DNA of 64,000 nucleotides from a virus (lineage: Duplodnaviria; Heunggongvirae; Uroviricota; Caudoviricetes): the IMG/VR virus record IMGVR_UViG_3300042554_002914; one strand, 5' to 3'. The position numbers and the translations under genes were made by a program. The number at the start of each line of letters is the position of its first letter. Position 1 is the first letter of the stretch. A model generated the notes under the pieces. That model was given only the letters and a program-made list of their open reading frames with translations, ran no database searches and was not told the DNA's origin. Of this stretch, positions 3,396 to 63,810 are shown piece after piece.

Positions 3396-3480
3396 GGGGA
3401 TTGCGGTTTGTGGAATCTGACTTCCATAGTATAGCACACGGGAGACCGAACCGAACCGAACCCCCCCCCTATGCCAGTTG
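3391..3480 (-). promoter_or_regulatory. promoter plus conserved 5' leader cassette, copy 1 of 3
   Basis: The extended -10 is TGCTATACT. The leader GGAAGTCAGATTCCACAAACCGCAATCCCC-ATG is conserved. The other copies lie at 4711-4795 and 5075-5160. Confidence 0.5.
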
Positions 3481-3491
3481 CTTAATTGTCC

Positions 3492-4352
3492 TTAAATCAA
3501 AGATAAATCAATACCGTGGGTATCATACCACCACTCTTTTGTTTTATCTGGATGTTTGTCTTTAATCTTCAAGTATCGTGAAGTTATTTTACTTTGCCGG
3601 TTAACTTCGTCAGCAAAAAATTGATGCTCAATAGTTTCCCCACTTTTGTAGAGTTGGCGCAATAATTTACGCAAAACATACTCCTGTTTTTGGTTTCCAG
3701 GTTTATACCCAGACTCTATTATTTTGTAGATGGTTTCCTTTAAAGTTTCCGTTGAACTTTTTACTGGATTCCCTAAAATACTTTCAATTCTTTCCAATCC
3801 GAACCCAACATCAATAAACTGTCCAGATGTATTAACAATGTTACCAATTTCTATTCCATTCTTATAAAATTCAGTGCAGTAACCACCGAGTTCACCATCA
3901 CTCCAGACACATTCTGAATCGTATCTAATTTCCAAATCAGGGTAATCGGAATAAAAATACTTCCAAGAGTCATATTTATCTGGATGTATGGTCACATAAT
4001 CTATTTTAACTTTTAGTATATCATTAAGGAACCTCATCCAAAAATGAATGGTTTGTTGCATCGTCAATTCACCAAAGGAAAAAAGACCCAACATATTAAA
4101 ATACAATAAATGAGACCCATCACCAATTTCATCTAAATCCTGTAGGCGGATGCAAGATTGGCTATTAGCGATAGATGTATTATCTGGATTTTTAAACTTG
4201 TCCTTAAACTGTTGCATTCCAGCAGGACAAAATAGGGTAGTGTCGTCATAAGGCTTCACGCTATCGTCCACCTTAAATGAAATGTTATTACTCTCGCAAT
4301 AACTCCGGTACAGGTCTACTACTTCAGTCATTTTTAACGTATGATGAGCCAT
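3492..4352 (-). CDS. alanyl-tRNA synthetase catalytic-core homolog (aminoacylation domain only, 286 aa)
   Basis: TTLFCPAGMQQFKDKF aligns with AlaRS DPTLLFTNAGMNQFKDVF. LGLFSFGE aligns with LGNFSFGD. VGFGLERI aligns with DTGMGLERI. EYVLRKLLRQL aligns with GYVLRRIIRRA. There are no tRNA-recognition, editing or C-Ala domains. Confidence 0.75.
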   Translation of the reverse strand: MAHHTLKMTEVVDLYRSYCESNNISFKVDDSVKPYDDTTLFCPAGMQQFKDKFKNPDNTSIANSQSCIRLQDLDEIGDGSHLLYFNMLGLFSFGELTMQQTIHFWMRFLNDILKVKIDYVTIHPDKYDSWKYFYSDYPDLEIRYDSECVWSDGELGGYCTEFYKNGIEIGNIVNTSGQFIDVGFGLERIESILGNPVKSSTETLKETIYKIIESGYKPGNQKQEYVLRKLLRQLYKSGETIEHQFFADEVNRQSKITSRYLKIKDKHPDKTKEWWYDTHGIDLSLI

Positions 4353-9699: not shown

Positions 9700-11085
9700 T
9701 CACAAAACCTCAGGCAAAACATAGCCCTTAATCTTCGCAACCCGCCTATTCAAAATAGCCCAATCATCCAAATCCTTAAACCTAAAGTGAGCAGACCCCT
9801 TTAAGAAAACCTTAAACTCAAAGAAACCCCAATCTTGCCATACCCCTGGTTCCAATCGGTCTTTGCCACAAACGGGGTCTTTAACGGCATCATAATCTTT
9901 GCCAGTCAAAGTAGATAGGACCTTAATTAGATCCGCCACCTTATAGTAATTAGTCTCATAGGACCTAACAGATACGGTCCCCCCACTCCAATCTTTCTCC
10001 GCAAAGTACGGCAAAATAAACTTCTTCCCAAATAAATACTGCTCATTGGTTTTCCACCCTTCTACACCATGCCTATTATCGTGATAATGTTTGGTGAAAG
10101 CATCGAAAACTTGCTCTACAGTCCTATCTAATCGCTGATCCTGAGTTGCAATAACAATTTCCAACATCCTGTAGATATTCCTCATTGTAAACGGAACCTT
10201 ACTTTGTTGCTCCACAAACCTGTTAATATCTTTAAGCAATTCCATAGTTGCCAATTTCTCCATTCCCATCTTACTAAATACAAATTCCCACGCTGATCTT
10301 TGCAGGTCTTTTTGAAAGTCATTCCTTGCTTTTGCCTGGCCATTTTCCGTACAGACAAATGCGATATTTGATTTGTAAAATCCTTTCAGAACCCTATTTA
10401 TACCAACTGCAGACTCAATTTGTTTGTCATAAATCCTGCAGGCTTCCACGTATCTGTTGACGATATCTCTAACAAAATTATACGGAATCAGACCCTCTCC
10501 TTCAGCTTCAATTGCATCGGGACCCATAAAGAACCCATTAAACTCATCATCAGAACCCAAGGCAGGCTTCCTCAAGGTAACTAATCCTATTGCCACATCC
10601 GTAGAACGTTCCGCATCCTTAAAGACCTCACCCAAGTTCTCAACGTGCCCGTAGTTCCTAACTAGGGATCCTAGTTGTCTACGAGCCAAAGAATATTCAT
10701 TCCGCACAGTCTCCCAATTGCATAATGACACAATTTGACACCCTGGTGGTGCAATCTCGAAGGCATAGTTAATATGTTTTTCGTCCCCACTGAAAGGGGG
10801 ATTCATTATGATGAAGTCCACATGGCTTATTGCTTCCGGTTGAACATCCAGGAAGTCGGTTCCAATTAGTTTACATTGTTTTGCTGCCAGGATTGCCCTG
10901 AGGTTATCATCAATTTCACACGCCAGAACTTCACTAGCCCCATATTGCAAACAACCTTCTACCAAATTGCCAGAACCTGCGGATGGCTCCAGAATGACTT
11001 TGCCATTCAAGTCGAATGGCCCCAGCATTGCGCCTATAACTTGGTCGGGAGTCGGATAATAGTCCTTGTTGTTATAGGATGGCAT
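9700..11085 (-). CDS. N6-adenine DNA methyltransferase with a long C-terminal extension
   Basis: Motif I (EPSAGSGNL) precedes motif IV (NPPF) in the N-terminal roughly 100 aa. The protein is 461 aa. Confidence 0.8.
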   Translation of the reverse strand: MPSYNNKDYYPTPDQVIGAMLGPFDLNGKVILEPSAGSGNLVEGCLQYGASEVLACEIDDNLRAILAAKQCKLIGTDFLDVQPEAISHVDFIIMNPPFSGDEKHINYAFEIAPPGCQIVSLCNWETVRNEYSLARRQLGSLVRNYGHVENLGEVFKDAERSTDVAIGLVTLRKPALGSDDEFNGFFMGPDAIEAEGEGLIPYNFVRDIVNRYVEACRIYDKQIESAVGINRVLKGFYKSNIAFVCTENGQAKARNDFQKDLQRSAWEFVFSKMGMEKLATMELLKDINRFVEQQSKVPFTMRNIYRMLEIVIATQDQRLDRTVEQVFDAFTKHYHDNRHGVEGWKTNEQYLFGKKFILPYFAEKDWSGGTVSVRSYETNYYKVADLIKVLSTLTGKDYDAVKDPVCGKDRLEPGVWQDWGFFEFKVFLKGSAHFRFKDLDDWAILNRRVAKIKGYVLPEVL

Positions 11086-13873: not shown

Positions 13874-15328
13874 TTACCCCGAAACCCTGCCATCACTAAT
13901 CATTATGCCTTCACTTACCAATAATTCCCGAATCCTATCTGCCTCCTCATAATCACGATTAGCCCTTGCTATGTTGCGCATTTCAATTAGTGCCTGAATT
14001 TCATCGCTTTTTGGTTTTTGAGGCTCGGAAACCTCATGAACCAGTCCCAAAATCCCAGCTAATTCACATAAGAGCCCCCAACGATTTAGAATTTCCCTAT
14101 TTTCATCGCCTGCTGATACAATGGGGCGAGCCAAATAGAATAATTCGCTGATGGCCACAGACGTATTAAGATCATCATTGAGTGCCGAAATGAAGCGGTC
14201 TCGGCTATTTTTTAAGTCTGTAGTTAAAATCAAGGGTTCATTCGTTTGCTGACTAATCCCGTGCCGACTAATTCCATTCCGGCTAGCCCCATGCCAACTA
14301 TCACCATGCCAACCAAACCCCAATGCAGCATTTAATACTTTCCAACCATTGATCGCGGGTATCATTGCCTCTGAATTAAAATCTATCGGCTTCCTGTAAT
14401 GGGCTTGTAATACGAATAACCTAATGGTCATGGGACTAATGCCGGATCCAATTAGGTCTCTAATGGTTGTAAAATTCCCTAGGGATTTAGCCATTTTTTC
14501 TTCACCAACCGTGACAAACCCGTTATGAAGCCAATACCTGGCTAGTTCAGCCCCATTGGCAGCCTCAGATTGGGCGATCTCGTTTTCGTGGTGGGGAAAG
14601 ATCAGATCGGCTCCACCCAAATGAATGTCAATTGTCTCACCTAGTTCTTCCCTAATCATAGCCGAACATTCGATATGCCATCCGGGTCGTCCCCACCCCC
14701 AGGGTGACGGAAAGCCGGGTTCACTCGCCATGGCACTCTTCCAAAGAGCAAAATCAAAAGGGTGGCCCTTCTTTGAGTCGCTATTAACTTGTTGTTGGCC
14801 AAGGTTGCGACCACTTAGTTTCCCGTACCCCTTAAACCCTGTAACCGAGAAGTACATATCCCCGCCCATAGAATAAGCAAATCCCTTATCGGCAAGGTCT
14901 TGAATCATGGCGCGGATTGCATCGAGACTACGGGTAACCCTTGGCATTTTGTCGGCAGGCAGGATGTTCAATGCGCCCATATCCTCCTCAAAGGCCTTAA
15001 TATTACGCTCACTGACGGCCCCGATTGTTGTTCCTTCAGAGTTGGCTTTGGCTAGAATTTTATCATCGATATCCGTATAATTCTGAACAAACGTAACCTC
15101 ATACCCATGCCACATAAAATTACGCCTTAAGACATCCCACACGATATAACTACGGGCGTGCCCTAAGTGGCATAAATCGTAAACGGTAACACCGCAGCAG
15201 TAAATCGAGACCTTGCCTGGAACCAGCGGAGTAAACTTCTCCTTGGCTTTAGTAAGGGTGTTGGTTAGGGTAATGTCGTTAATCATTGTATTTTGTAAGG
15301 TCAATATCCCCATGTCAATCCTTGTCAA
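13874..15328 (-). CDS. cysS: cysteinyl-tRNA synthetase
   Basis: The class-I HIGH motif (CHLGHARSY) and the KMSKS motif (KMAKSLGN) are both present. The protein is 484 aa. Confidence 0.9.
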
Positions 15329-23776: not shown

Positions 23777-24526
23777 TTACATTTTCATTGTAGCATCTAG
23801 ACGCAAGCCCCCAGAGAAGATAACCTTAGCCATTGTGTCAGGTAGCGTCCCCAGTAGGTGCAGAGAGTCTAAAGTGGAAAACATAAACATTTTGTTTAGT
23901 TCTTCCCTTACCCTCTCCTTGGAGACACCCGCTAGCATTTCCTCCGCCAGACCACTACGCAATGCAGCATGAGTTTCAACCTCGGGGACAAAACCTTTGG
24001 TGATTTGGAACCTGAACCCTCTTAGAACTCTGAGCCCATCTTCTTTGATTCGTTGCTCAGGATCCCCAACAAACCGAAGAATTTTGTTTTCGATGTCGGA
24101 AACCCCGTCAACAAAGTCAATTAGGTTACCTTGAATGTCCCTACAAAGTGCATTTACTGAAAAGTCTCTGCGAAAAATGTCATCTTCCAGGGTACCCGGC
24201 TTCACCCAATCAGGGCGACGGCCATCGCTGTAGGGACCATCTTTGCGGGCTAGTACAAAGTCAGCGACGGTAGTGCGGGCCTCTAGCACATGGCCCTTTG
24301 GGACCCGCGCACGAATGGTTAGAAACTCACGGCGAGACTCGAAAATCTGGAAACCTTGCTCGGCAAGCTGAGCTTCCATCGCAAGGAAAGCACTATCGGC
24401 CGTGGCGAAGACACCCTCGGGAGCAACAACAGAGAAGTCAATGTCCTTGGATGGAATCCCAAGTAAACTATCCCTGACACAACCCCCCACCTCAAAAAAT
24501 TGAAATTTTTCCACTTGCTTTGCCAT
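23777..24526 (-). CDS. cca: tRNA nucleotidyltransferase (CCA-adding enzyme), minimal head/neck form
   Basis: GGCVRDSLLG..DIDF is a class-II nucleotidyltransferase motif. RRDFSVNAL is a CCA-enzyme signature. The protein is 249 aa. Confidence 0.75.
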   Translation of the reverse strand: MAKQVEKFQFFEVGGCVRDSLLGIPSKDIDFSVVAPEGVFATADSAFLAMEAQLAEQGFQIFESRREFLTIRARVPKGHVLEARTTVADFVLARKDGPYSDGRRPDWVKPGTLEDDIFRRDFSVNALCRDIQGNLIDFVDGVSDIENKILRFVGDPEQRIKEDGLRVLRGFRFQITKGFVPEVETHAALRSGLAEEMLAGVSKERVREELNKMFMFSTLDSLHLLGTLPDTMAKVIFSGGLRLDATMKM

Positions 24527-36994: not shown

Positions 36995-37109
36995 ATGGGA
37001 CCGGCAGGATTTGAACCTACAACCTCTCCTTTATCATAGGAATTTTAATTGCTGATGTATCTTTGACAAGATAACTTTCTTTAGCGCTCTGTCGTTGAGC
37101 TATGGTCCC
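36995..37109 (-). ncRNA. tRNA-like RNA gene in which a roughly 40-nt insertion replaces the anticodon arm
   Basis: Minus-strand reading is GGGACCA-UA-GCUC-AACGACA-GAGC, then the insertion, then GUAGG-UUCAAAU-CCUGC-CGGUCCC-A. The insertion holds a UAUCUU-GUCA-AAGAUA hairpin and the motif CAGCAAUUAAAAUUCC. No canonical 7-nt anticodon loop is present. Confidence 0.5.
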
Positions 37110-37216
37110 TTGTTTGCTTCGCAAATAGCTTGTTGAAACACGGTTTAGCTAGATAGTTGGTTTTCCGATTTTGAAGGGGATGGTTGCTGAACTATCTACG
37201 TTTGCCGAAGGCAAAG

Positions 37217-37346
37217 TCGAAGAGGCAAGATTCGAACTTGCGTATGGCGGTTCCTTTTAGCGTATTGGGGTATTGCTGAACTATCTAAGGTATCACTAGA
37301 TGGTCTTTTTGCATTACCGCTGCCTTACCCACTTGGCTACTCTTCG
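37217..37346 (-). ncRNA. tRNA-like RNA gene with a roughly 57-nt insertion between anticodon-stem halves GCGGU/ACCGC
   Basis: CGAAGAG-UA-GCC-AAGUGGGUAA-GGC-A-GCGGU precedes the insertion, which holds an AUCUAG..UUAGAU hairpin and CAGCAAUACC. ACCGC-CAUAC-GCAAG-UUCGAAU-CUUGC-CUCUUCG-A follows it. Confidence 0.5.
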
Positions 37347-37401
37347 TTGTTGGTTGTTGGTTGTTGGTCTAGTGTTTTAACTGTTTAAGGTCAACAAGGT
37401 G

Positions 37402-37480
37402 AGCTTGCTGGATTTGAACCAGCTAACCAGGCGTATCACGTACTCCTTGTATTATCCTATTTGGAATGGCTGCCTCACCT
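37402..37480 (-). ncRNA. partial tRNA-like element (T-arm plus a 7-bp closing helix) carrying the same CAGC..AUUCC motif
   Basis: A GCUGG-UUCAAAU-CCAGC T-arm is present. The ends AGGUGAG and CUCACCU pair. No D-arm is recognisable, and 3 nt lie between the T-stem and the closing helix. Confidence 0.3.
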
Positions 37481-37592
37481 TAGGCTTTGAGCTTGTTAAG
37501 CAAGCCCGACACTTCTATTATAGTGTGTATGGACAGGGAGTAAAGGGGTGAAAACCGAACATTGCCACTGAGTGTAGAATTCCGTGGACAAA

Positions 37593-37710
37593 TAGGGGAA
37601 GAAGGAATCGAACCTCCGTCACGTCCGTATGATGGAATTTTTGTAATTGCTGTCTGCACCTTATTCAAGGTAACCGTTAATTACGTGTGCTGCCACCGCA
37701 CTATTCCCCT
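37593..37710 (-). ncRNA. tRNA-like RNA gene in which a roughly 43-nt insertion replaces the anticodon arm
   Basis: AGGGGAA-UA-GUGC-GGUGGCA-GCAC-A precedes the insertion, which holds a UUACCUU-GAAU-AAGGUG hairpin and CAGCAAUUACAAAAAUUCC. GGAGG-UUCGAUU-CCUUC-UUCCCCU-A follows, with a perfect 7-bp acceptor. Confidence 0.5.
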
Positions 37711-52049: not shown

Positions 52050-53219
52050 CTACCGGATCCCAAGCAGTTTGTCAAGTTGTTGGGGCCGTAGGTCTGCTAG
52101 CCACTGCCGGAAGGTAGGGTACCTACCGGAGCGTATTGCGAAACAGGCTGCCGATACCGAGGGGGCATCTTTGAGAATTGCAATGGCGAATTCCTTTTGC
52201 GTTAAGGCTCCATACTTATGAAGCATCATCTCACATAAAGATTGCATCGCAGGGATAGCAGAGTCCAGATGAATCGAAAACTTATCTCTATATTCAGGGA
52301 AGTGCAATAGGAACTCTTCCAAGTCGTCATTAAGGAACAATTCCGAAAAGTCAGGCTCGCCATTATTCCATGCCCGGTGTAGTTGGCAGTATAACCTAGA
52401 CTTAATCTTAACCCTTCCAACCCCATCAAACAATACATAACCTTCATGATTTGAATCTCGCTTTTCAACTTTGGTAAGTACAGAGTCAAGGTCACTGAAT
52501 TCGTAAGATGGGGCCACCACATAGCCATACCACCCAAACTCTTCCAGATCACACTCTTCGAAGTCCTGATCTCGGTCTCGTACTGCTAGTAAGGGAAGTT
52601 TGGGCGCATCGTAGTTAATAACATCTTTATTATCTAGGTGACATAACTCAAAGATGTAGCAAATTGACGGGTCTAGGCATTCCTTTAAGTACCCTACTTT
52701 TTCGAATACATCCCAGAATAATTCATCAAAGGTTTTTTTAGTTTTTCCTACTAGGCCATCCCCTGCTACTGAACCAGAAGTTGAAACGAGCCATTGCCCC
52801 CTATACTCAAACAATTTAATTAAGGAGCCGGAAAATTTCTCATAAACCTTGGTGCGAGACCAATCTAGTTCGTGACAGTAACCTTCCCCAACGTTGAAAA
52901 ATCTATCGAACGCATATGCAACCAAGCGATAGTACGGCGAGTGGTCACCATCGTTATCAACACGCTCGACCACAGCACCACGGCAGGCACAAACCAGCGG
53001 ATTTGATTTGGATGCTAAAATCGTCCCATATTTCAAATTAAAAAGGTTCGGATACCTTTCATCGCGAGTAACACGAATGTCATACTCAGCTAGGGCGTCT
53101 AGGGCATTGTAACCCCTCTCGTTAAGCCAGTCAATCAAGTAGTGGCGCAAGTTTTCCATGGTTGTAGTATAGGTGGTTTTTACTGGCAGGGTAAGGCGGT
53201 TTACCGAACTCATTTCCAA
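52050..53219 (-). CDS. T4 Rnl1-family RNA ligase (tRNA-repair ligase) with a variant motif I
   Basis: CRGAVVE aligns with T4 ECRGIMFE. FDRFFNVGE aligns with MEKFFNLNE. EGYVLFDGVGRVKIKSRLYCQLH aligns with T4 [24 protein letters not shown]. Motif I reads EKFSGSL instead of KEDGSL. Confidence 0.7.
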   Translation of the reverse strand: MEMSSVNRLTLPVKTTYTTTMENLRHYLIDWLNERGYNALDALAEYDIRVTRDERYPNLFNLKYGTILASKSNPLVCACRGAVVERVDNDGDHSPYYRLVAYAFDRFFNVGEGYCHELDWSRTKVYEKFSGSLIKLFEYRGQWLVSTSGSVAGDGLVGKTKKTFDELFWDVFEKVGYLKECLDPSICYIFELCHLDNKDVINYDAPKLPLLAVRDRDQDFEECDLEEFGWYGYVVAPSYEFSDLDSVLTKVEKRDSNHEGYVLFDGVGRVKIKSRLYCQLHRAWNNGEPDFSELFLNDDLEEFLLHFPEYRDKFSIHLDSAIPAMQSLCEMMLHKYGALTQKEFAIAILKDAPSVSAACFAIRSGRYPTFRQWLADLRPQQLDKLLGIR

Positions 53220-53676: not shown

Positions 53677-54176
53677 TTTGTTATAGGTTGATTGAGTGAG
53701 GGGTGAATTGAATAGCTATCGTAACACAAATTGCCCTACCCACGTAGAACAGTGTGCCAGTTGGCCAAGTGTCCACACATGGGTTAGTCTTGTGGCTGTT
53801 TTGCCATGTTCAGTTGTGCAATATGAAGAAGTTTTTCCTTCCTTGCTTTTTGCTTTAGGTAGATAACAAAAGAAATATTCATTTTGCCACCTTCACATTT
53901 TTTGCAAGGGCGATGAGTTTGGTTATACCAATCTGCGTACTCTTGTTTTGCAACATCGGTATCATAAGCGACACCGCGATAGACTGCTTTAGACATTTTT
54001 TTCCTCTATGGTGAAATCATGAGTCCCGTTCCTTCGGAAGGCGATTGCGTTTCTCGTCGTCCTACTTGCGTCCACTGTGTGTTAATAGCGGATGAACGAT
54101 GGTAGTTTAGGTCTCTGATATCTTGTATAGCTTATAATACCCATCTATTTAGAAATCAGGTTCACTCAATACCCCG

Positions 54177-62304: not shown

Positions 62305-63810
62305 TTAACCAAGTAGGCGACTGCGAACGTTCGCTAAACCGTTGGTATCTTCACCGTAAATCACACTATTTAGAAATACGGTTTGGAGCGCACCTCGCTG
62401 CTCTTGCTCACGAGTTTGCTGTTGATAGAGGACAAAGTCATCTCCTTCTTTTTCAACACGGAGTAAACCCTTGGCCGACTTTTTGGTGCCACGGTCGGTA
62501 ACCGGATCCTTCATGGTCTCAATCGGGACACCTTTGATCTGGCCCCAAGTTGTTTTGTAAGCGATTCCGAAAGTATCACGAGTGTGGTATTGATAGGTGT
62601 AAGAACCGATCCCAAACACGATGTTTTCGGATGCCCAACCTTGTTGCCTCATGTGCTCCAAAATAGCTCTGGCACGGGGTAGAGTGATGGAATCCCCATA
62701 AATAAGTCCAATCCGAGGGTTCAAGACTTTGAATCCCTTTTCGTTCACTGTCCCACCGAAGACTTCCCACAGGAGTTGAAGGGAGCCCTTGAACTCACGG
62801 CTACCTGGCTCAGTGCCGTTGTCACCGCAAATGATTTTCTCGGGGGATCCCGAGTCGGGTCTGACGGTTACCTTGGCTAGTCCCAATTCATTAGGCTGAC
62901 GGTTTAGGATTTCATCTTTAAGGGTAGGGAGAATTACCGTCAGTGTATCCCAGTAATTCCAAGTGTCACTGACTACGCTAACAATCCCTTTTGGGTACAC
63001 CTTCGTGATGATCCGTCGAATAGTCTCCAATTCATTTTCCCGTCCCCCTAGGCAGGTAACACTATGCTCCGTAGCGGGGACACTACCCCCAATGAACTCG
63101 GAACCGCAATCATAATAATCGTCAAGGTAATCAATCGAAAGGATAGTGTCAGTACCCTTAAAACTATACAAGTGCCCAATCTGGTGAGCTGCCGCATCAT
63201 GAATGCCCCCTACTCCGCGAGCAGAAAAGTCATGCCCCTGAAAGTCAACGAACTGAGGACTACTACCTGTGAGTTCAGCGTAGTGGTCTAAAAGACGGCG
63301 AAATTCATAGGCAATGGTGGCTACGTTGACTGCTTTCCAAATTTCCGAAGATTTAGCAGTTTCAATATAGTTAGTGGCCCATGGAGCCATCCACTTGAAG
63401 TCTTTATGAGTGTTTTGTGCCGTCAGAAAGGGGACGCCAATGTTCACACGACTACCTTCTGGGAGAGCTTTAATGTGAAGGGGCAGGTAACCAAGGTCGT
63501 GTAATTCCGCAAAGTGATCAGTTCCCACTACGCCTTCCCCCAGCGAAGAATCCATTCGCCGCTTATACTTATCAAGGACTTTAGCCTTAGGCTGGTGAAA
63601 GAAGGTTTCATTCCAAAGATCCCTCAACATCCATTTCATGGTCCCCTGGATATTAGCCACAACTACCTTATGGTCGAATCCCTCAGGCATATTTGCTAGG
63701 CGATCAGACCTAGCTGTCATGTTGGCATAGATAATCTCAGTGCCTTCTGGGTTTTGAAAGGGGTGTCCAGTCTTGTAAAAGTCTGTTGCGTGGGGGGCGA
63801 AAAGTTTCAT
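62305..63810 (-). CDS. nadV: nicotinamide phosphoribosyltransferase (NAMPT/NadV)
   Basis: TDFYKTGH matches NAMPT TDSYKVTH. The 501-aa length fits the NAPRTase/NAMPT family. Confidence 0.8.
   Translation of the reverse strand: MKLFAPHATDFYKTGHPFQNPEGTEIIYANMTARSDRLANMPEGFDHKVVVANIQGTMKWMLRDLWNETFFHQPKAKVLDKYKRRMDSSLGEGVVGTDHFAELHDLGYLPLHIKALPEGSRVNIGVPFLTAQNTHKDFKWMAPWATNYIETAKSSEIWKAVNVATIAYEFRRLLDHYAELTGSSPQFVDFQGHDFSARGVGGIHDAAAHQIGHLYSFKGTDTILSIDYLDDYYDCGSEFIGGSVPATEHSVTCLGGRENELETIRRIITKVYPKGIVSVVSDTWNYWDTLTVILPTLKDEILNRQPNELGLAKVTVRPDSGSPEKIICGDNGTEPGSREFKGSLQLLWEVFGGTVNEKGFKVLNPRIGLIYGDSITLPRARAILEHMRQQGWASENIVFGIGSYTYQYHTRDTFGIAYKTTWGQIKGVPIETMKDPVTDRGTKKSAKGLLRVEKEGDDFVLYQQQTREQEQRGALQTVFLNSVIYGEDTNGLANVRSRLLG

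What the first reader, a model, noticed from the sequence alone, without database searches (positions are those of the whole stretch)
3492..4352. Stand-alone AlaRS catalytic-core homolog with no tRNA-binding, editing or C-Ala domains
The 286 aa align block by block with the N-terminal aminoacylation domain of bacterial AlaRS. The alignment covers the AGMNQFK ATP/alanine pocket, the FSFG region and the GFGLERI motif-3 region. Everything after about residue 320 of the canonical enzyme is missing. Free-standing AlaRS editing domains (AlaX) are well known. A free-standing AlaRS activation domain is not a standard phage gene. It could activate alanine, or another small amino acid, for transfer to a non-tRNA acceptor, or act on the unusual tRNA-like RNAs. 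It sits 10 kb from a complete CysRS.
Basis: partly seen in the sequence, partly recalled or inferred. Interest (0 to 1): 0.75.

Follow-up and report, generated by a model that had tools for sequence, protein, structure and literature searches.

The report
Ultra-small phage alanyl-tRNA synthetase
This 286-residue phage gene is a drastically shrunken but apparently intact alanyl-tRNA synthetase, from a large unstudied family of phages and Rhizobium plasmids; if active, it would be the smallest natural enzyme of its kind.

Summary
The ORF is real: window 3492..4352, minus strand, 286 aa (or 279 aa from Met8). It is an AlaRS homolog (Pfam PF01411 E=8e-24; profile-profile E=6e-44) and not a gene fragment. 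It belongs to a conserved family of 273-310 aa proteins. I found more than 120 sequence clusters, 77 IMG/VR viral loci and 89 Rhizobium plasmids. NCBI's PGAP pipeline already names it 'alanine--tRNA ligase-related protein'.

All alanine/ATP pocket residues (E. coli R69, W170, N212, V214, D235, G237 and the motif-3 Arg) are invariant in 153 members. A basic ~90-residue helical tail keeps the PSN...GYVLRR helix (Asn303 equivalent) and a C-terminal WW(F/Y)DTHG motif matching LYD400TYGFP. These are the two elements that read the G3:U70 pair.

In other phages the gene sits beside tRNA-Ala genes (13 of 45 tRNAs within 1 kb versus 14 of 203 farther away, p=1.4e-4). In two lineages it sits beside tmRNA genes. 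These RNAs carry G3:U70 and A73.

The best reading is a minimal, editing-free AlaRS that reads only the acceptor stem (confidence about 0.6). Activity is untested. It is a new variant of a known kind.

The parts
3492..4352 (-). Mini-AlaRS ORF, 286 aa plus stop codon at 3492-3494. An alternative start at Met8 (4329-4331) would give 279 aa.
3768..4352 (-). Class II catalytic core, residues 1-195, acidic (pI 4.6). It carries AGMQQFK (residues 44-50), motif-2 Arg69 (4146-4148), Trp150 (3903-3905), Glu168 (3849-3851), Asn171 (3840-3842), Val173 (3834-3836), Asp181 (3810-3812), Gly183 (3804-3806) and motif-3 Arg188 (3789-3791). All are invariant in 153 family members.
3495..3767 (-). Reduced tRNA-recognition module, residues 196-286, basic (pI 9.3), predicted as four helices. 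It holds the PGN220QKQxYVLRKLLR helix (Asn220 = 3693-3695, equivalent to E. coli Asn303) and the C-terminal EWWYD277THGIDL motif (Asp277 = 3522-3524, equivalent to E. coli Asp400).
13874..15328 (-). Full-length class I CysRS, 484 aa. This is context and not part of the mini-AlaRS.
23777..24526 (-). Context: a protein with a CCA-adding/poly(A) polymerase head domain. It belongs to the window's tRNA maintenance gene set.

Best explanation
The gene encodes a minimal, self-sufficient alanyl-tRNA synthetase. The acidic class II core (residues 1-195) binds ATP and L-alanine and makes alanyl-AMP. This step is inferred from complete conservation of the canonical pocket. The basic four-helix tail (residues 196-286) is a stripped-down version of the canonical tRNA-recognition domain. 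It docks on the acceptor stem and reads the G3:U70 pair through the Asn220 loop and the Asp277-Thr-His-Gly loop. Alanine is then transferred to A76. These steps are inferred from motif and fold correspondence and from genomic linkage. The enzyme does not bind the tRNA elbow and does not proofread. Mischarged Ser- or Gly-tRNA(Ala) would have to be cleared in trans by host AlaRS, AlaX or DTD. In the phage it probably keeps Ala-tRNA(Ala), and where present Ala-tmRNA, supplied during infection. It would work alongside the window's other tRNA-related genes: tRNAs, CysRS, a CCA-adding-like enzyme and two RNA ligases.
For: The homology is unambiguous. All 153 family members keep the equivalents of E. 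coli R69, W170, E209, N212, V214, D235, G237 and the motif-3 Arg. The Asn303 equivalent is Asn in 107 of 153 members. The Asp400 equivalent is Asp in 138 of 153, and the flanking Thr and Gly are nearly invariant. MAFFT aligns WWYDTHGIDL with RLYDTYGFPVDL. Divergent members carry LWDTYGVPVEI or LFDTYGID, which bridges the two motifs. The isolated 47-aa C-terminal profile maps best to canonical residues 389-414 out of 840 columns (E=0.0022). The Foldseek alignment spans ~400 of 441 target columns. The tail has pI 9.3 and the core pI 4.6. Genomic linkage was measured in 43 dereplicated viral and metagenomic loci. Within 1 kb of the gene, 13 of 45 tRNAs are tRNA-Ala, against 14 of 203 farther away (Fisher p=1.4e-4). 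Nine of the 13 loci with any tRNA within 1 kb have tRNA-Ala, almost always on the same strand. Of 31 distinct phage tRNA-Ala, 27 have G3:U70 plus A73. A permuted tmRNA lies ~300 nt downstream in L016 and L018, and a standard tmRNA lies 1.9 kb downstream in L086. Both have G3:U70 and A73. No partner gene is conserved in phages or in Rhizobium, which fits an autonomous enzyme. There are precedents: the Tupanvirus mini-AlaRS and the A. aeolicus N453 fragment charge through the acceptor stem alone, and the N. equitans alpha subunit (core plus part of the recognition domain) charges weakly (PMC10036535). The window also encodes CysRS, tRNAs, a CCA-adding-like enzyme and Rnl1/Rnl2-like ligases.
Against: No activity data exist for any member. 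About 100 residues of the recognition domain are deleted: the equivalents of E. coli 255-285, 326-355 and everything beyond 410. From my own recollection, E. coli fragments ending before residue ~461 lose tRNA charging. The motif-2 loop lacks GGKH, including the Lys that I recall was cross-linked to the tRNA 3' end. The C-terminal motif match taken alone is weak (hhalign probability 13%). HMMER and hhalign local alignments stop at residue ~242. I had no residue-level structural superposition. No tRNA-Ala or tmRNA lies in this 64-kb window. In many viral loci, and in all bacterial loci, there is no nearby tRNA-Ala. The tRNA enrichment test does not correct for shared ancestry of the loci. The protein scores far below the alaS equivalog cutoff (85.5 bits against 457).
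Confidence: 0.6

Rival explanations
1. The protein is an alanine-adenylating enzyme that passes alanine to a non-tRNA acceptor such as a small molecule, a carrier protein or modified DNA. This would resemble other truncated aaRS paralogs (AsnA, aa:carrier-protein ligases, PoxA).
For: The activation pocket is intact. The recognition domain is heavily reduced and the GGKH loop is lost. The bacterial copies coexist with a normal chromosomal AlaRS, which I assume because AlaRS is essential; I did not check it. These copies are not next to tRNA genes. Some phage copies sit beside sulfotransferases, glycosyltransferases or nucleotide-metabolism genes.
Against: No conserved neighbour could serve as an acceptor or carrier. 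The elements that read G3:U70 are conserved, which is unexplained if no tRNA is bound. The gene is linked to tRNA-Ala and tmRNA genes.
Confidence: 0.13
2. The protein is a catalytic subunit that needs a partner supplied in trans, such as host full-length AlaRS, AlaX, a C-Ala-like protein or an unidentified phage protein. This would resemble the N. equitans split AlaRS alpha/beta pair or bacterial GlyRS alpha/beta.
For: The N. equitans alpha subunit alone is weak and non-specific (PMC10036535). GlyRS alpha, about 300 aa, is the next-best structural match (TMq 0.48). Much of the recognition domain is missing.
Against: No beta-like ORF lies nearby or anywhere in the 64-kb window. No co-conserved neighbour occurs in phages or Rhizobium. 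Unlike the description of the N. equitans alpha subunit, this family keeps the Asp400-motif equivalent itself.
Confidence: 0.12
3. The protein is an Ala-tRNA(Ala)-dependent transferase like AcmF of ascamycin biosynthesis. In this reading a truncated AlaRS-like fold binds charged tRNA and moves alanine onto another molecule.
For: AcmF is also a truncated AlaRS-like protein with only the aminoacylation and tRNA-recognition domains (PMC12945691). Phage enzymes that use aminoacyl-tRNA exist, for example Mom with Gly-tRNA(Gly) (PMC13219725).
Against: AcmF has lost most ATP and alanine-binding residues and carries N219Q and D232E. In this family the equivalent Asn171 and Asp181, and both motif Arg residues, are invariant in 153 sequences.
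Confidence: 0.04
4. The ORF is a decaying fragment or an assembly artefact of a full-length alaS gene.
For: The protein is short compared with the canonical ~875 aa. The gene has the lowest GC of 56 ORFs in the window.
Against: The length is conserved at 273-310 aa across more than 120 clusters down to 40% identity, with clean stops. The identical protein is found on 12 independent contigs. Purifying selection on active-site residues is strong. No downstream AlaRS-like sequence exists.
Confidence: 0.01

Closest known systems
Tupanvirus mini-AlaRS (TuAlaRS, 461 aa; PMC10036535)
   Same: It is a virus-encoded AlaRS without editing and C-Ala domains, and motifs 1-3 are retained. It is shown to work through the acceptor stem alone, charging both the microhelix and tRNA(Ala).
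   Different: TuAlaRS keeps a full-size tRNA-recognition domain but has lost the Asn/Asp pair (it has Pro321 and Thr416 instead). [quoted passage not shown] The present family is about 175 residues shorter, with internal deletions in both domains. It mostly keeps the Asn and Asp. It occurs in tailed phages and Rhizobiaceae, and it is untested.
Engineered AlaRS aminoacylation fragments (E. coli 1-441/461N, A. aeolicus N453; PDB 3HXU, 1RIQ)
   Same: These are the best structural and sequence matches. They have the same pocket and the same recognition motifs, and the fragments charge G3:U70 minihelices.
   Different: They are laboratory truncations of about 440-465 aa. The natural family here is 276-290 aa and lacks the equivalents of E. 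coli 72-75, ~160-169, 187-206, 217-228, 255-285, 326-355 and everything beyond 410.
Nanoarchaeum equitans split AlaRS alpha subunit
   Same: [quoted passage not shown] Alone, it can charge tRNA(Ala) weakly.
   Different: It has a dedicated beta subunit that restores activity and G3:U70 specificity. No beta-like partner is seen here.
AcmF, the AlaRS-like Ala-tRNA-dependent transferase (PMC12945691)
   Same: It is a free-standing truncated AlaRS-like protein with catalytic-like and tRNA-recognition domains only.
   Different: AcmF has degenerated ATP and alanine sites (N219Q, D232E) and sits in a biosynthetic cluster. This family has an invariant canonical site and no such cluster.
Bacterial GlyRS alpha subunit (GlyQ, about 300 aa) and 'small-AlaRS' (bioRxiv 10.1101/2023.05.29.542759)
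   Same: GlyQ is a stand-alone catalytic core of about 300 aa and is homologous to the AlaRS core. Small-AlaRS shows that AlaRS can lose domains naturally.
   Different: There is no Pfam GlyQ (PF02091) hit, and TMq against GlyQ is only 0.48, compared with 0.76-0.79 against AlaRS. Small-AlaRS keeps the editing domain.
AlaX (free-standing AlaRS editing domain)
   Same: It is a stand-alone piece of AlaRS.
   Different: It is the opposite piece. No editing-domain sequence is present here.

Membership tests
Alanyl-tRNA synthetase, class IIc catalytic domain (Pfam PF01411) | Score above the Pfam gathering threshold | tested here: met
   84.5 bits against a cutoff of 30.3, E=8.2e-24. hhalign against canonical AlaRS gives probability 100% and E=6e-44.
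Alanyl-tRNA synthetase, class IIc catalytic domain (Pfam PF01411) | Class II motif-2 and motif-3 arginines and the alanine pocket (E. coli R69, W170, N212, V214, D235, G237) | tested here: met
   R69, W150, N171, V173, D181, G183 and R188 are invariant in 153 family sequences.
Canonical full-length AlaRS (NCBIfam TIGR00344 alaS equivalog) | Score above the equivalog cutoff, which reflects the four-domain architecture | tested here: not met
   85.5 bits against a cutoff of 457.05.
Canonical full-length AlaRS (NCBIfam TIGR00344 alaS equivalog) | Editing domain (HxxxH/CxxxH zinc site) and C-Ala domain | tested here: not met
   The protein ends at residue 286. A tblastn search with an 876-aa AlaRS finds nothing else in the window.
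Canonical full-length AlaRS (NCBIfam TIGR00344 alaS equivalog) | tRNA-recognition domain carrying the G3:U70-reading Asn and Asp (E. coli N303, D400) | tested here: inconclusive
   The Asn220 helix aligns with high confidence. The Asp277 motif aligns by MAFFT, through bridging sequences, by the extent of the Foldseek alignment and by a weak hhalign hit with E=0.0022. About half of the domain is deleted, and no residue-level superposition was available.
Canonical full-length AlaRS (NCBIfam TIGR00344 alaS equivalog) | Catalyses ATP-dependent alanylation of tRNA(Ala) | not testable with these tools
   Only indirect evidence is available: linkage to tRNA-Ala and tmRNA genes that carry G3:U70.
Viral mini-AlaRS (Tupanvirus type) | Catalytic domain plus an intact, full-size tRNA-recognition domain (about 460 aa), with no editing or C-Ala domain | tested here: not met
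   [quoted passage not shown] The recognition domain is reduced to about 90 residues and the total length is 286 aa.
AcmF-type AlaRS-like aminoacyl-tRNA transferase | Degenerate ATP/alanine site (N219Q, D232E) and a biosynthetic-cluster context | tested here: not met
   The equivalent Asn171 and Asp181 are invariant, and no such cluster is present.
Bacterial GlyRS alpha subunit (PF02091) | Pfam tRNA-synt_2e match and a GlyS partner | tested here: not met
   There is no PF02091 hit at E<1. Foldseek TMq is 0.48, against 0.76-0.79 for AlaRS.

The most novel reading that the evidence does not exclude
This family of 276-290 aa proteins is a fully functional, free-standing AlaRS and the smallest natural one. 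It would read only the acceptor-stem 'operational code' through a recognition module of about 90 residues, and it would charge both tRNA(Ala) and tmRNA. It would also be one example of a wider, undescribed set of miniaturised class II synthetases in huge phages. Mini-GlyRS-like (246 aa) and mini-HisRS-like (210 aa) proteins were seen beside their cognate tRNA genes in related loci. One clade has been domesticated on Rhizobiaceae plasmids and chromosomes.
Probability: 0.45. Interest if true: 0.8.

Novelty: new variant of a known kind. Interest (0 to 1): 0.62.

Why it matters
AlaRS is the textbook case for the idea that early synthetases read an 'operational RNA code' in the acceptor stem. The authors of the Tupanvirus paper state that their 461-aa enzyme is the only known natural aaRS made of the aminoacylation domain alone. 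A natural family about 40% smaller, abundant and diverse, would define how little protein is needed for specific alanylation. It keeps every catalytic residue and both G3:U70-reading motifs. It would offer a compact orthogonal charging module for synthetic biology. It would also show how large phages keep alanine-accepting RNAs (tRNA-Ala and tmRNA) charged without proofreading. Surveys that rely on equivalog HMM cutoffs will probably miss these genes, because this one scores 85 bits against a cutoff of 457. Counts of phage tRNA synthetases may therefore be too low. The conserved Rhizobium copy gives a genetically tractable system for testing the function.

Tried and rejected
- **Fragment or artefact.** Rejected because the length is conserved, identical copies occur on 12 contigs, and there is no downstream AlaRS sequence.
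- **GlyRS-alpha identity.** Rejected: no PF02091 hit and a lower TM-score.
- **AcmF-like transferase.** Rejected on the invariant Asn and Asp.
- **Action on the window's three long tRNA-like RNAs (36996-37710).** None has G3:U70.
- **A conserved operon partner.** Neighbourhoods differ between lineages: RNR and adenylate kinase, sulfotransferases, tRNA arrays, and metabolic genes in Rhizobium.
- **A prophage origin for the bacterial copies.** The Rhizobium and Neorhizobium contexts are metabolic or housekeeping genes (pdxA, glpK, serA-like).
- **A mini-GlyRS or Thg1 homolog in this window.** None was found.
- **Megablast of the first 20 kb against GenBank phages.** No match.
- **HMMER and hhalign extension to the C-terminal motif.** Local alignments stop at about residue 242 because of the large deletion. 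The motif was tested separately and the support is weak.
- **Literature searches.** Nine searches on phage or Rhizobium mini-AlaRS and related terms found no study of this family. The searchable library lacks most subscription journals.
- **Not done.** I could not obtain model coordinates for a residue-level superposition. I did not scan the rest of the 284-kb phage genome for tRNA-Ala.
Full report
**The observation.** The window holds an ORF at 3492..4352 on the minus strand, 286 codons plus a stop. Most homologs begin at the position of its Met8, and a 279-aa version sits in the same 90% cluster. The true start may therefore be 4331.

The protein matches Pfam tRNA-synt_2c (PF01411) with E=8.2e-24 and 84.5 bits against a cutoff of 30.3. 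It matches solved AlaRS N-terminal fragments by sequence, with 1RIQ at E=2e-13. A 32-member family profile aligns to a 21-member canonical AlaRS profile with probability 100% and E=6e-44. An AlphaFold2 model (mean pLDDT 87.2, pTM 0.82) hits the E. coli AlaRS 1-441 fragment first in the PDB, with E=8e-16 and TMq 0.76-0.79. GlyRS alpha subunits follow far behind at TMq 0.48.

A tblastn search with a full 876-aa AlaRS finds only this one AlaRS-like segment in the 64 kb.

**Not a fragment, and not rare.** The exact protein occurs on 12 contigs, including a 284-kb JGI contig of which this window is a part. A near-identical copy (97%) lies on a 279-kb IMG/VR viral contig.

A search of 5.8 billion proteins returned 986 hits. 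The best 120 clusters are all 259-311 aa, 56-100% identical, and carry PF01411 only. At 50% clustering, 61 representatives score E<=1e-30. The full-length ones are 275-330 aa, and canonical AlaRS proteins only start to appear near 117 bits. The few longer members (358-403 aa) add no recognisable domain.

IMG/VR gave 77 loci on contigs up to 608 kb. The best GenBank phage hit is the 635-kb uncultured phage LR745206.1 at 60% identity.

Unexpectedly, the family is also found in cellular genomes. It occurs in 78 loci from GTDB species representatives, mostly Rhizobium, Neorhizobium, Inquilinus and Phyllobacterium. It also occurs on 89 Rhizobium plasmids, including R. etli CFN42 p42b and R. johnstonii 3841 pRL9, where PGAP calls it 'alanine--tRNA ligase-related protein'. 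In these bacteria it is a stand-alone gene among metabolic or housekeeping genes. It is not in a prophage and not next to tRNA genes. A rough NJ tree places the Rhizobiales clade inside the viral diversity.

In this window the gene has the lowest GC of 56 ORFs: 35.0% against a mean of 45.4% with sd 4.2. That fits a mobile, horizontally exchanged gene.

**Anatomy.** I aligned the family against Salmonella AlaRS, which has 876 residues like the E. coli enzyme (E. coli length from my own knowledge) and carries the expected residues at the E. coli positions checked. The catalytic machinery is complete:
- AGMQQFK corresponds to AGMNQFK.
- QSCIR69 corresponds to motif-2 R69.
- W150 corresponds to W170.
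- E168-I-G-N171-I-V173 corresponds to E-I-W-N212-I-V214.
- D181-V-G183-F-G-L-E-R188 corresponds to D235-T-G237-M-G-L-E-R.

Across 153 sequences (82 viral or metagenomic and 71 bacterial), R69, W150, E168, N171, V173, D181, G183 and R188 are all invariant. This differs from AcmF, a known truncated AlaRS-like enzyme. AcmF has lost these residues (N219Q, D232E) and acts as an Ala-tRNA-dependent transferase (PMC12945691). I infer that the protein forms alanyl-AMP.

Residues 196-286 form four predicted helices. This region is basic (pI 9.3), whereas the core is acidic (pI 4.6).

The segment 211-240 (KPGN220QKQxYVLRKLLR) aligns confidently with the canonical PSN303ENRGYVLRRIIRR helix.

The strongly conserved C-terminus KEWW(F/Y)D277THGIDL aligns with canonical AFRLYD400TYGFPVDL in a MAFFT alignment. 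Divergent family members bridge the two motifs: P0241 has LWDTYGVPVEI, P0182 has LFDTYGID and P0146 has WIDTYGIS. A profile of the last 47 residues alone finds canonical positions 389-414 as its best match among 840 columns (E=0.0022, but probability only 13%). Foldseek's alignment to the 441-residue E. coli fragment runs over about 400 columns.

E. coli N303 and D400 are the residues that hydrogen-bond the G3:U70 identity pair (PMC10036535). In the family, the Asn position is Asn in 107 of 153 sequences and Pro in 29. The Asp position is Asp in 138 of 153.

Several segments are deleted relative to E. coli:
- GGKH in the motif-2 loop
- about 160-169
- 187-206
- 217-228
- 255-285
- 326-355
- everything beyond about 410

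The protein is therefore a miniaturised version of the whole aminoacylation domain, not a bare catalytic core. The C-terminal correspondence is well supported but not proven, because I had no residue-level superposition.

**Genomic linkage to alanine-accepting RNAs.** I ran ARAGORN on all fetched viral and metagenomic loci and dereplicated them to 43 clusters at 90% protein identity. Within 1 kb of the gene, 13 of 45 tRNAs are tRNA-Ala, compared with 14 of 203 farther away (Fisher p=1.4e-4). Nine of the 13 loci with any tRNA within 1 kb contain tRNA-Ala, and tRNA-Ala is the most frequent nearest tRNA. The tRNAs are almost always on the same strand as the gene. Examples are L001 (about 400 nt downstream by the tblastn match, about 370 nt from the ORF stop), L006 (about 280 nt upstream of the match), L039 (6 nt downstream) and L066 (71 nt upstream).

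Of 31 distinct phage tRNA-Ala sequences, 27 carry G3:U70 with discriminator A73. Only 2 of 234 other tRNAs have a G3:U70 pair.

In two further lineages a tmRNA gene lies next to the mini-AlaRS gene. tmRNA is the other natural AlaRS substrate. A permuted tmRNA (RF04321, 66.8 bits) lies about 300 nt downstream in L016 and L018. A standard tmRNA (RF00023, 97.4 bits) lies 1.9 kb downstream in L086. Both have G3:U70 and A73.

There are caveats. The statistics ignore phylogenetic non-independence. Many loci have no tRNA at all. This window has no tRNA-Ala or tmRNA in its 64 kb. The three long tRNA-like RNAs at 36996-37710 have C, U and C at position 70 and no G3:U70 pair, so they are not predicted substrates.

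**Context in the window.** The surrounding DNA is phage-like and rich in RNA and tRNA functions:
- tRNA-Ser, tRNA-Ile(UAU) and tRNA-Arg
- CysRS
- a CCA-adding/poly(A) polymerase head-domain protein at 23777-24526
- an Rnl1-like ligase at 52050-53219 and an Rnl2-like ligase at 44371-45468
- NAMPT

Huge phages are known to carry tRNAs, synthetases and genes for ligating tRNAs cleaved by host defences (PMC7162821). In that study the synthetases were confirmed with TIGRFAM HMMs. This protein scores 85.5 bits against the alaS cutoff of 457, so it would probably be missed.

**Mechanism.** The reading I favour (about 0.6) is that the protein is a self-sufficient, editing-free AlaRS. It would form Ala-AMP in a canonical class II pocket. 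It would dock its basic helical tail on the acceptor stem and read G3:U70 through the Asn220 and Asp277 loops. It would then transfer alanine to A76 of tRNA(Ala), and of tmRNA where the phage has one. Proofreading would be left to host factors.

What is shown: the homology, conservation of the pocket and the recognition motifs, and the gene linkage. What is inferred: adenylation, tRNA binding, specificity and the biological role.

Precedents make this plausible. TuAlaRS (461 aa) and A. aeolicus N453 charge through the acceptor stem alone. The N. equitans alpha subunit, a core plus part of the recognition domain, charges weakly by itself.

The rivals are:
- an adenylating enzyme with a non-tRNA acceptor (0.13)
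- a subunit that needs a partner in trans (0.12)
- an AcmF-like transferase (0.04)
- a gene fragment (0.01)

**Comparison with what is known, and novelty.** The protein works like the aminoacylation fragment of AlaRS. It passes the Pfam family test. It fails the full-length alaS equivalog test and lacks two of the four canonical domains. It is not a Tupanvirus-type mini-AlaRS, because its recognition domain is reduced to about 90 residues while, unlike TuAlaRS, it keeps the Asn/Asp pair.

I found no paper on this family in the searchable library. Automated annotation already labels it as AlaRS or AlaRS-related. I therefore rate it a new variant of a known kind.

It is interesting for three reasons. 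It would set a new lower size limit for a specific AlaRS; from my own knowledge, its length is comparable with the smallest stand-alone aaRSs such as deltaN PylRS at about 275 aa. It is abundant. And it appears with other miniaturised class II cores in the same phages (see the items noticed in passing).

Noticed in passing
L001 7220-7960 (+); L009 7033-7773 (+); L006 2380-3012 (+): Other miniaturised class II synthetase cores occur in the same huge phages. A 246-aa tRNA-synt_2b protein lies immediately upstream of the mini-AlaRS and near tRNA-Gly genes; its best PDB sequence matches are class IIa GlyRS (7e-8). A 210-aa HisRS-like core (PF13393, 5.5e-27) is followed by tRNA-His. A Thg1 (tRNA-His guanylyltransferase) homolog lies nearby in L001 and L009. 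This suggests a general class of mini-aaRS in huge phages. No such gene is in this window.
   Followed up: partly
L016 11138-11316; L018 11144-11318; L086 2291-2670: Phage-encoded tmRNA genes lie next to the mini-AlaRS gene: permuted RF04321 in L016 and L018, standard RF00023 in L086. The L016 and L086 acceptor stems, which I inspected, have G3:U70 and A73.
   Followed up: partly
window 36996-37109, 37217-37346, 37593-37710 (-), and ORF 37997-39499 (-): Three tRNA-like RNAs match the Rfam tRNA model at both ends but carry inserts of 55-64 nt in place of the anticodon region. They lie just downstream of a 500-aa DUF2828/DUF7788 protein (phrog_850 'RNA-binding protein'). They could be intron-bearing tRNAs or Y-RNA-like tRNA mimics paired with a Ro-like protein. 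None has G3:U70.
   Followed up: partly
window 54023-54100 (-): A glutamine riboswitch aptamer (RF01739, 46.4 bits against a gathering score of 35) lies in a phage genome. The regulated gene was not examined.
   Followed up: no
window 23777-24526, 44371-45468, 52050-53219, 62305-63810 (all -): These ORFs encode a CCA-adding/poly(A) polymerase head-domain protein (249 aa), an Rnl2-like RNA ligase, a T4 Rnl1-like RNA ligase and a nicotinamide phosphoribosyltransferase. Together with the tRNAs and CysRS, they form a tRNA repair and maintenance plus NAD salvage set.
   Followed up: partly
L093-L170 (for example NC_007763.1 28836-29678; NC_008379.1 92660-93562): A conserved clade of the family sits on Rhizobium plasmids (89 PLSDB records) and on Neorhizobium, Phyllobacterium and Inquilinus chromosomes. 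It is a stand-alone gene among metabolic or housekeeping genes, annotated 'alanine--tRNA ligase-related protein'. Its role in bacteria, which I assume also carry a normal essential AlaRS (not checked), is unknown.
   Followed up: partly
window 3492-4352: The mini-AlaRS ORF has the lowest GC of 56 ORFs of at least 120 aa in the window: 35.0% against a mean of 45.4% (z=-2.4). Its GC3 is 32.8%. This is consistent with relatively recent horizontal acquisition.
   Followed up: yes
L032 about 20 nt upstream of the gene; L088; L068 and L069 tRNA-'Ala'(AGC): A few ARAGORN 'tRNA-Ala' calls next to the gene lack G3:U70. One type has the acceptor GCAGCAT/CTGTTCC with only 5 of 7 pairs. The other has an AGC anticodon with U3:A70. 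These may be miscalled, or unusual tRNAs whose charging enzyme is unclear.
   Followed up: no
window 9700-11085 (-): A 461-aa protein carries DUF4942 (E=1.8e-27) and a weak N-terminal methyltransferase-like match (Cons_hypoth95). It is conserved in synteny with the mini-AlaRS in the closest related contigs.
   Followed up: no
window 3440-3470: Immediately downstream of the ORF's stop codon lies a short GAACC x3 repeat followed by a C8 run (read on the + strand). No terminator-like hairpin was detected there by the scan.
   Followed up: no
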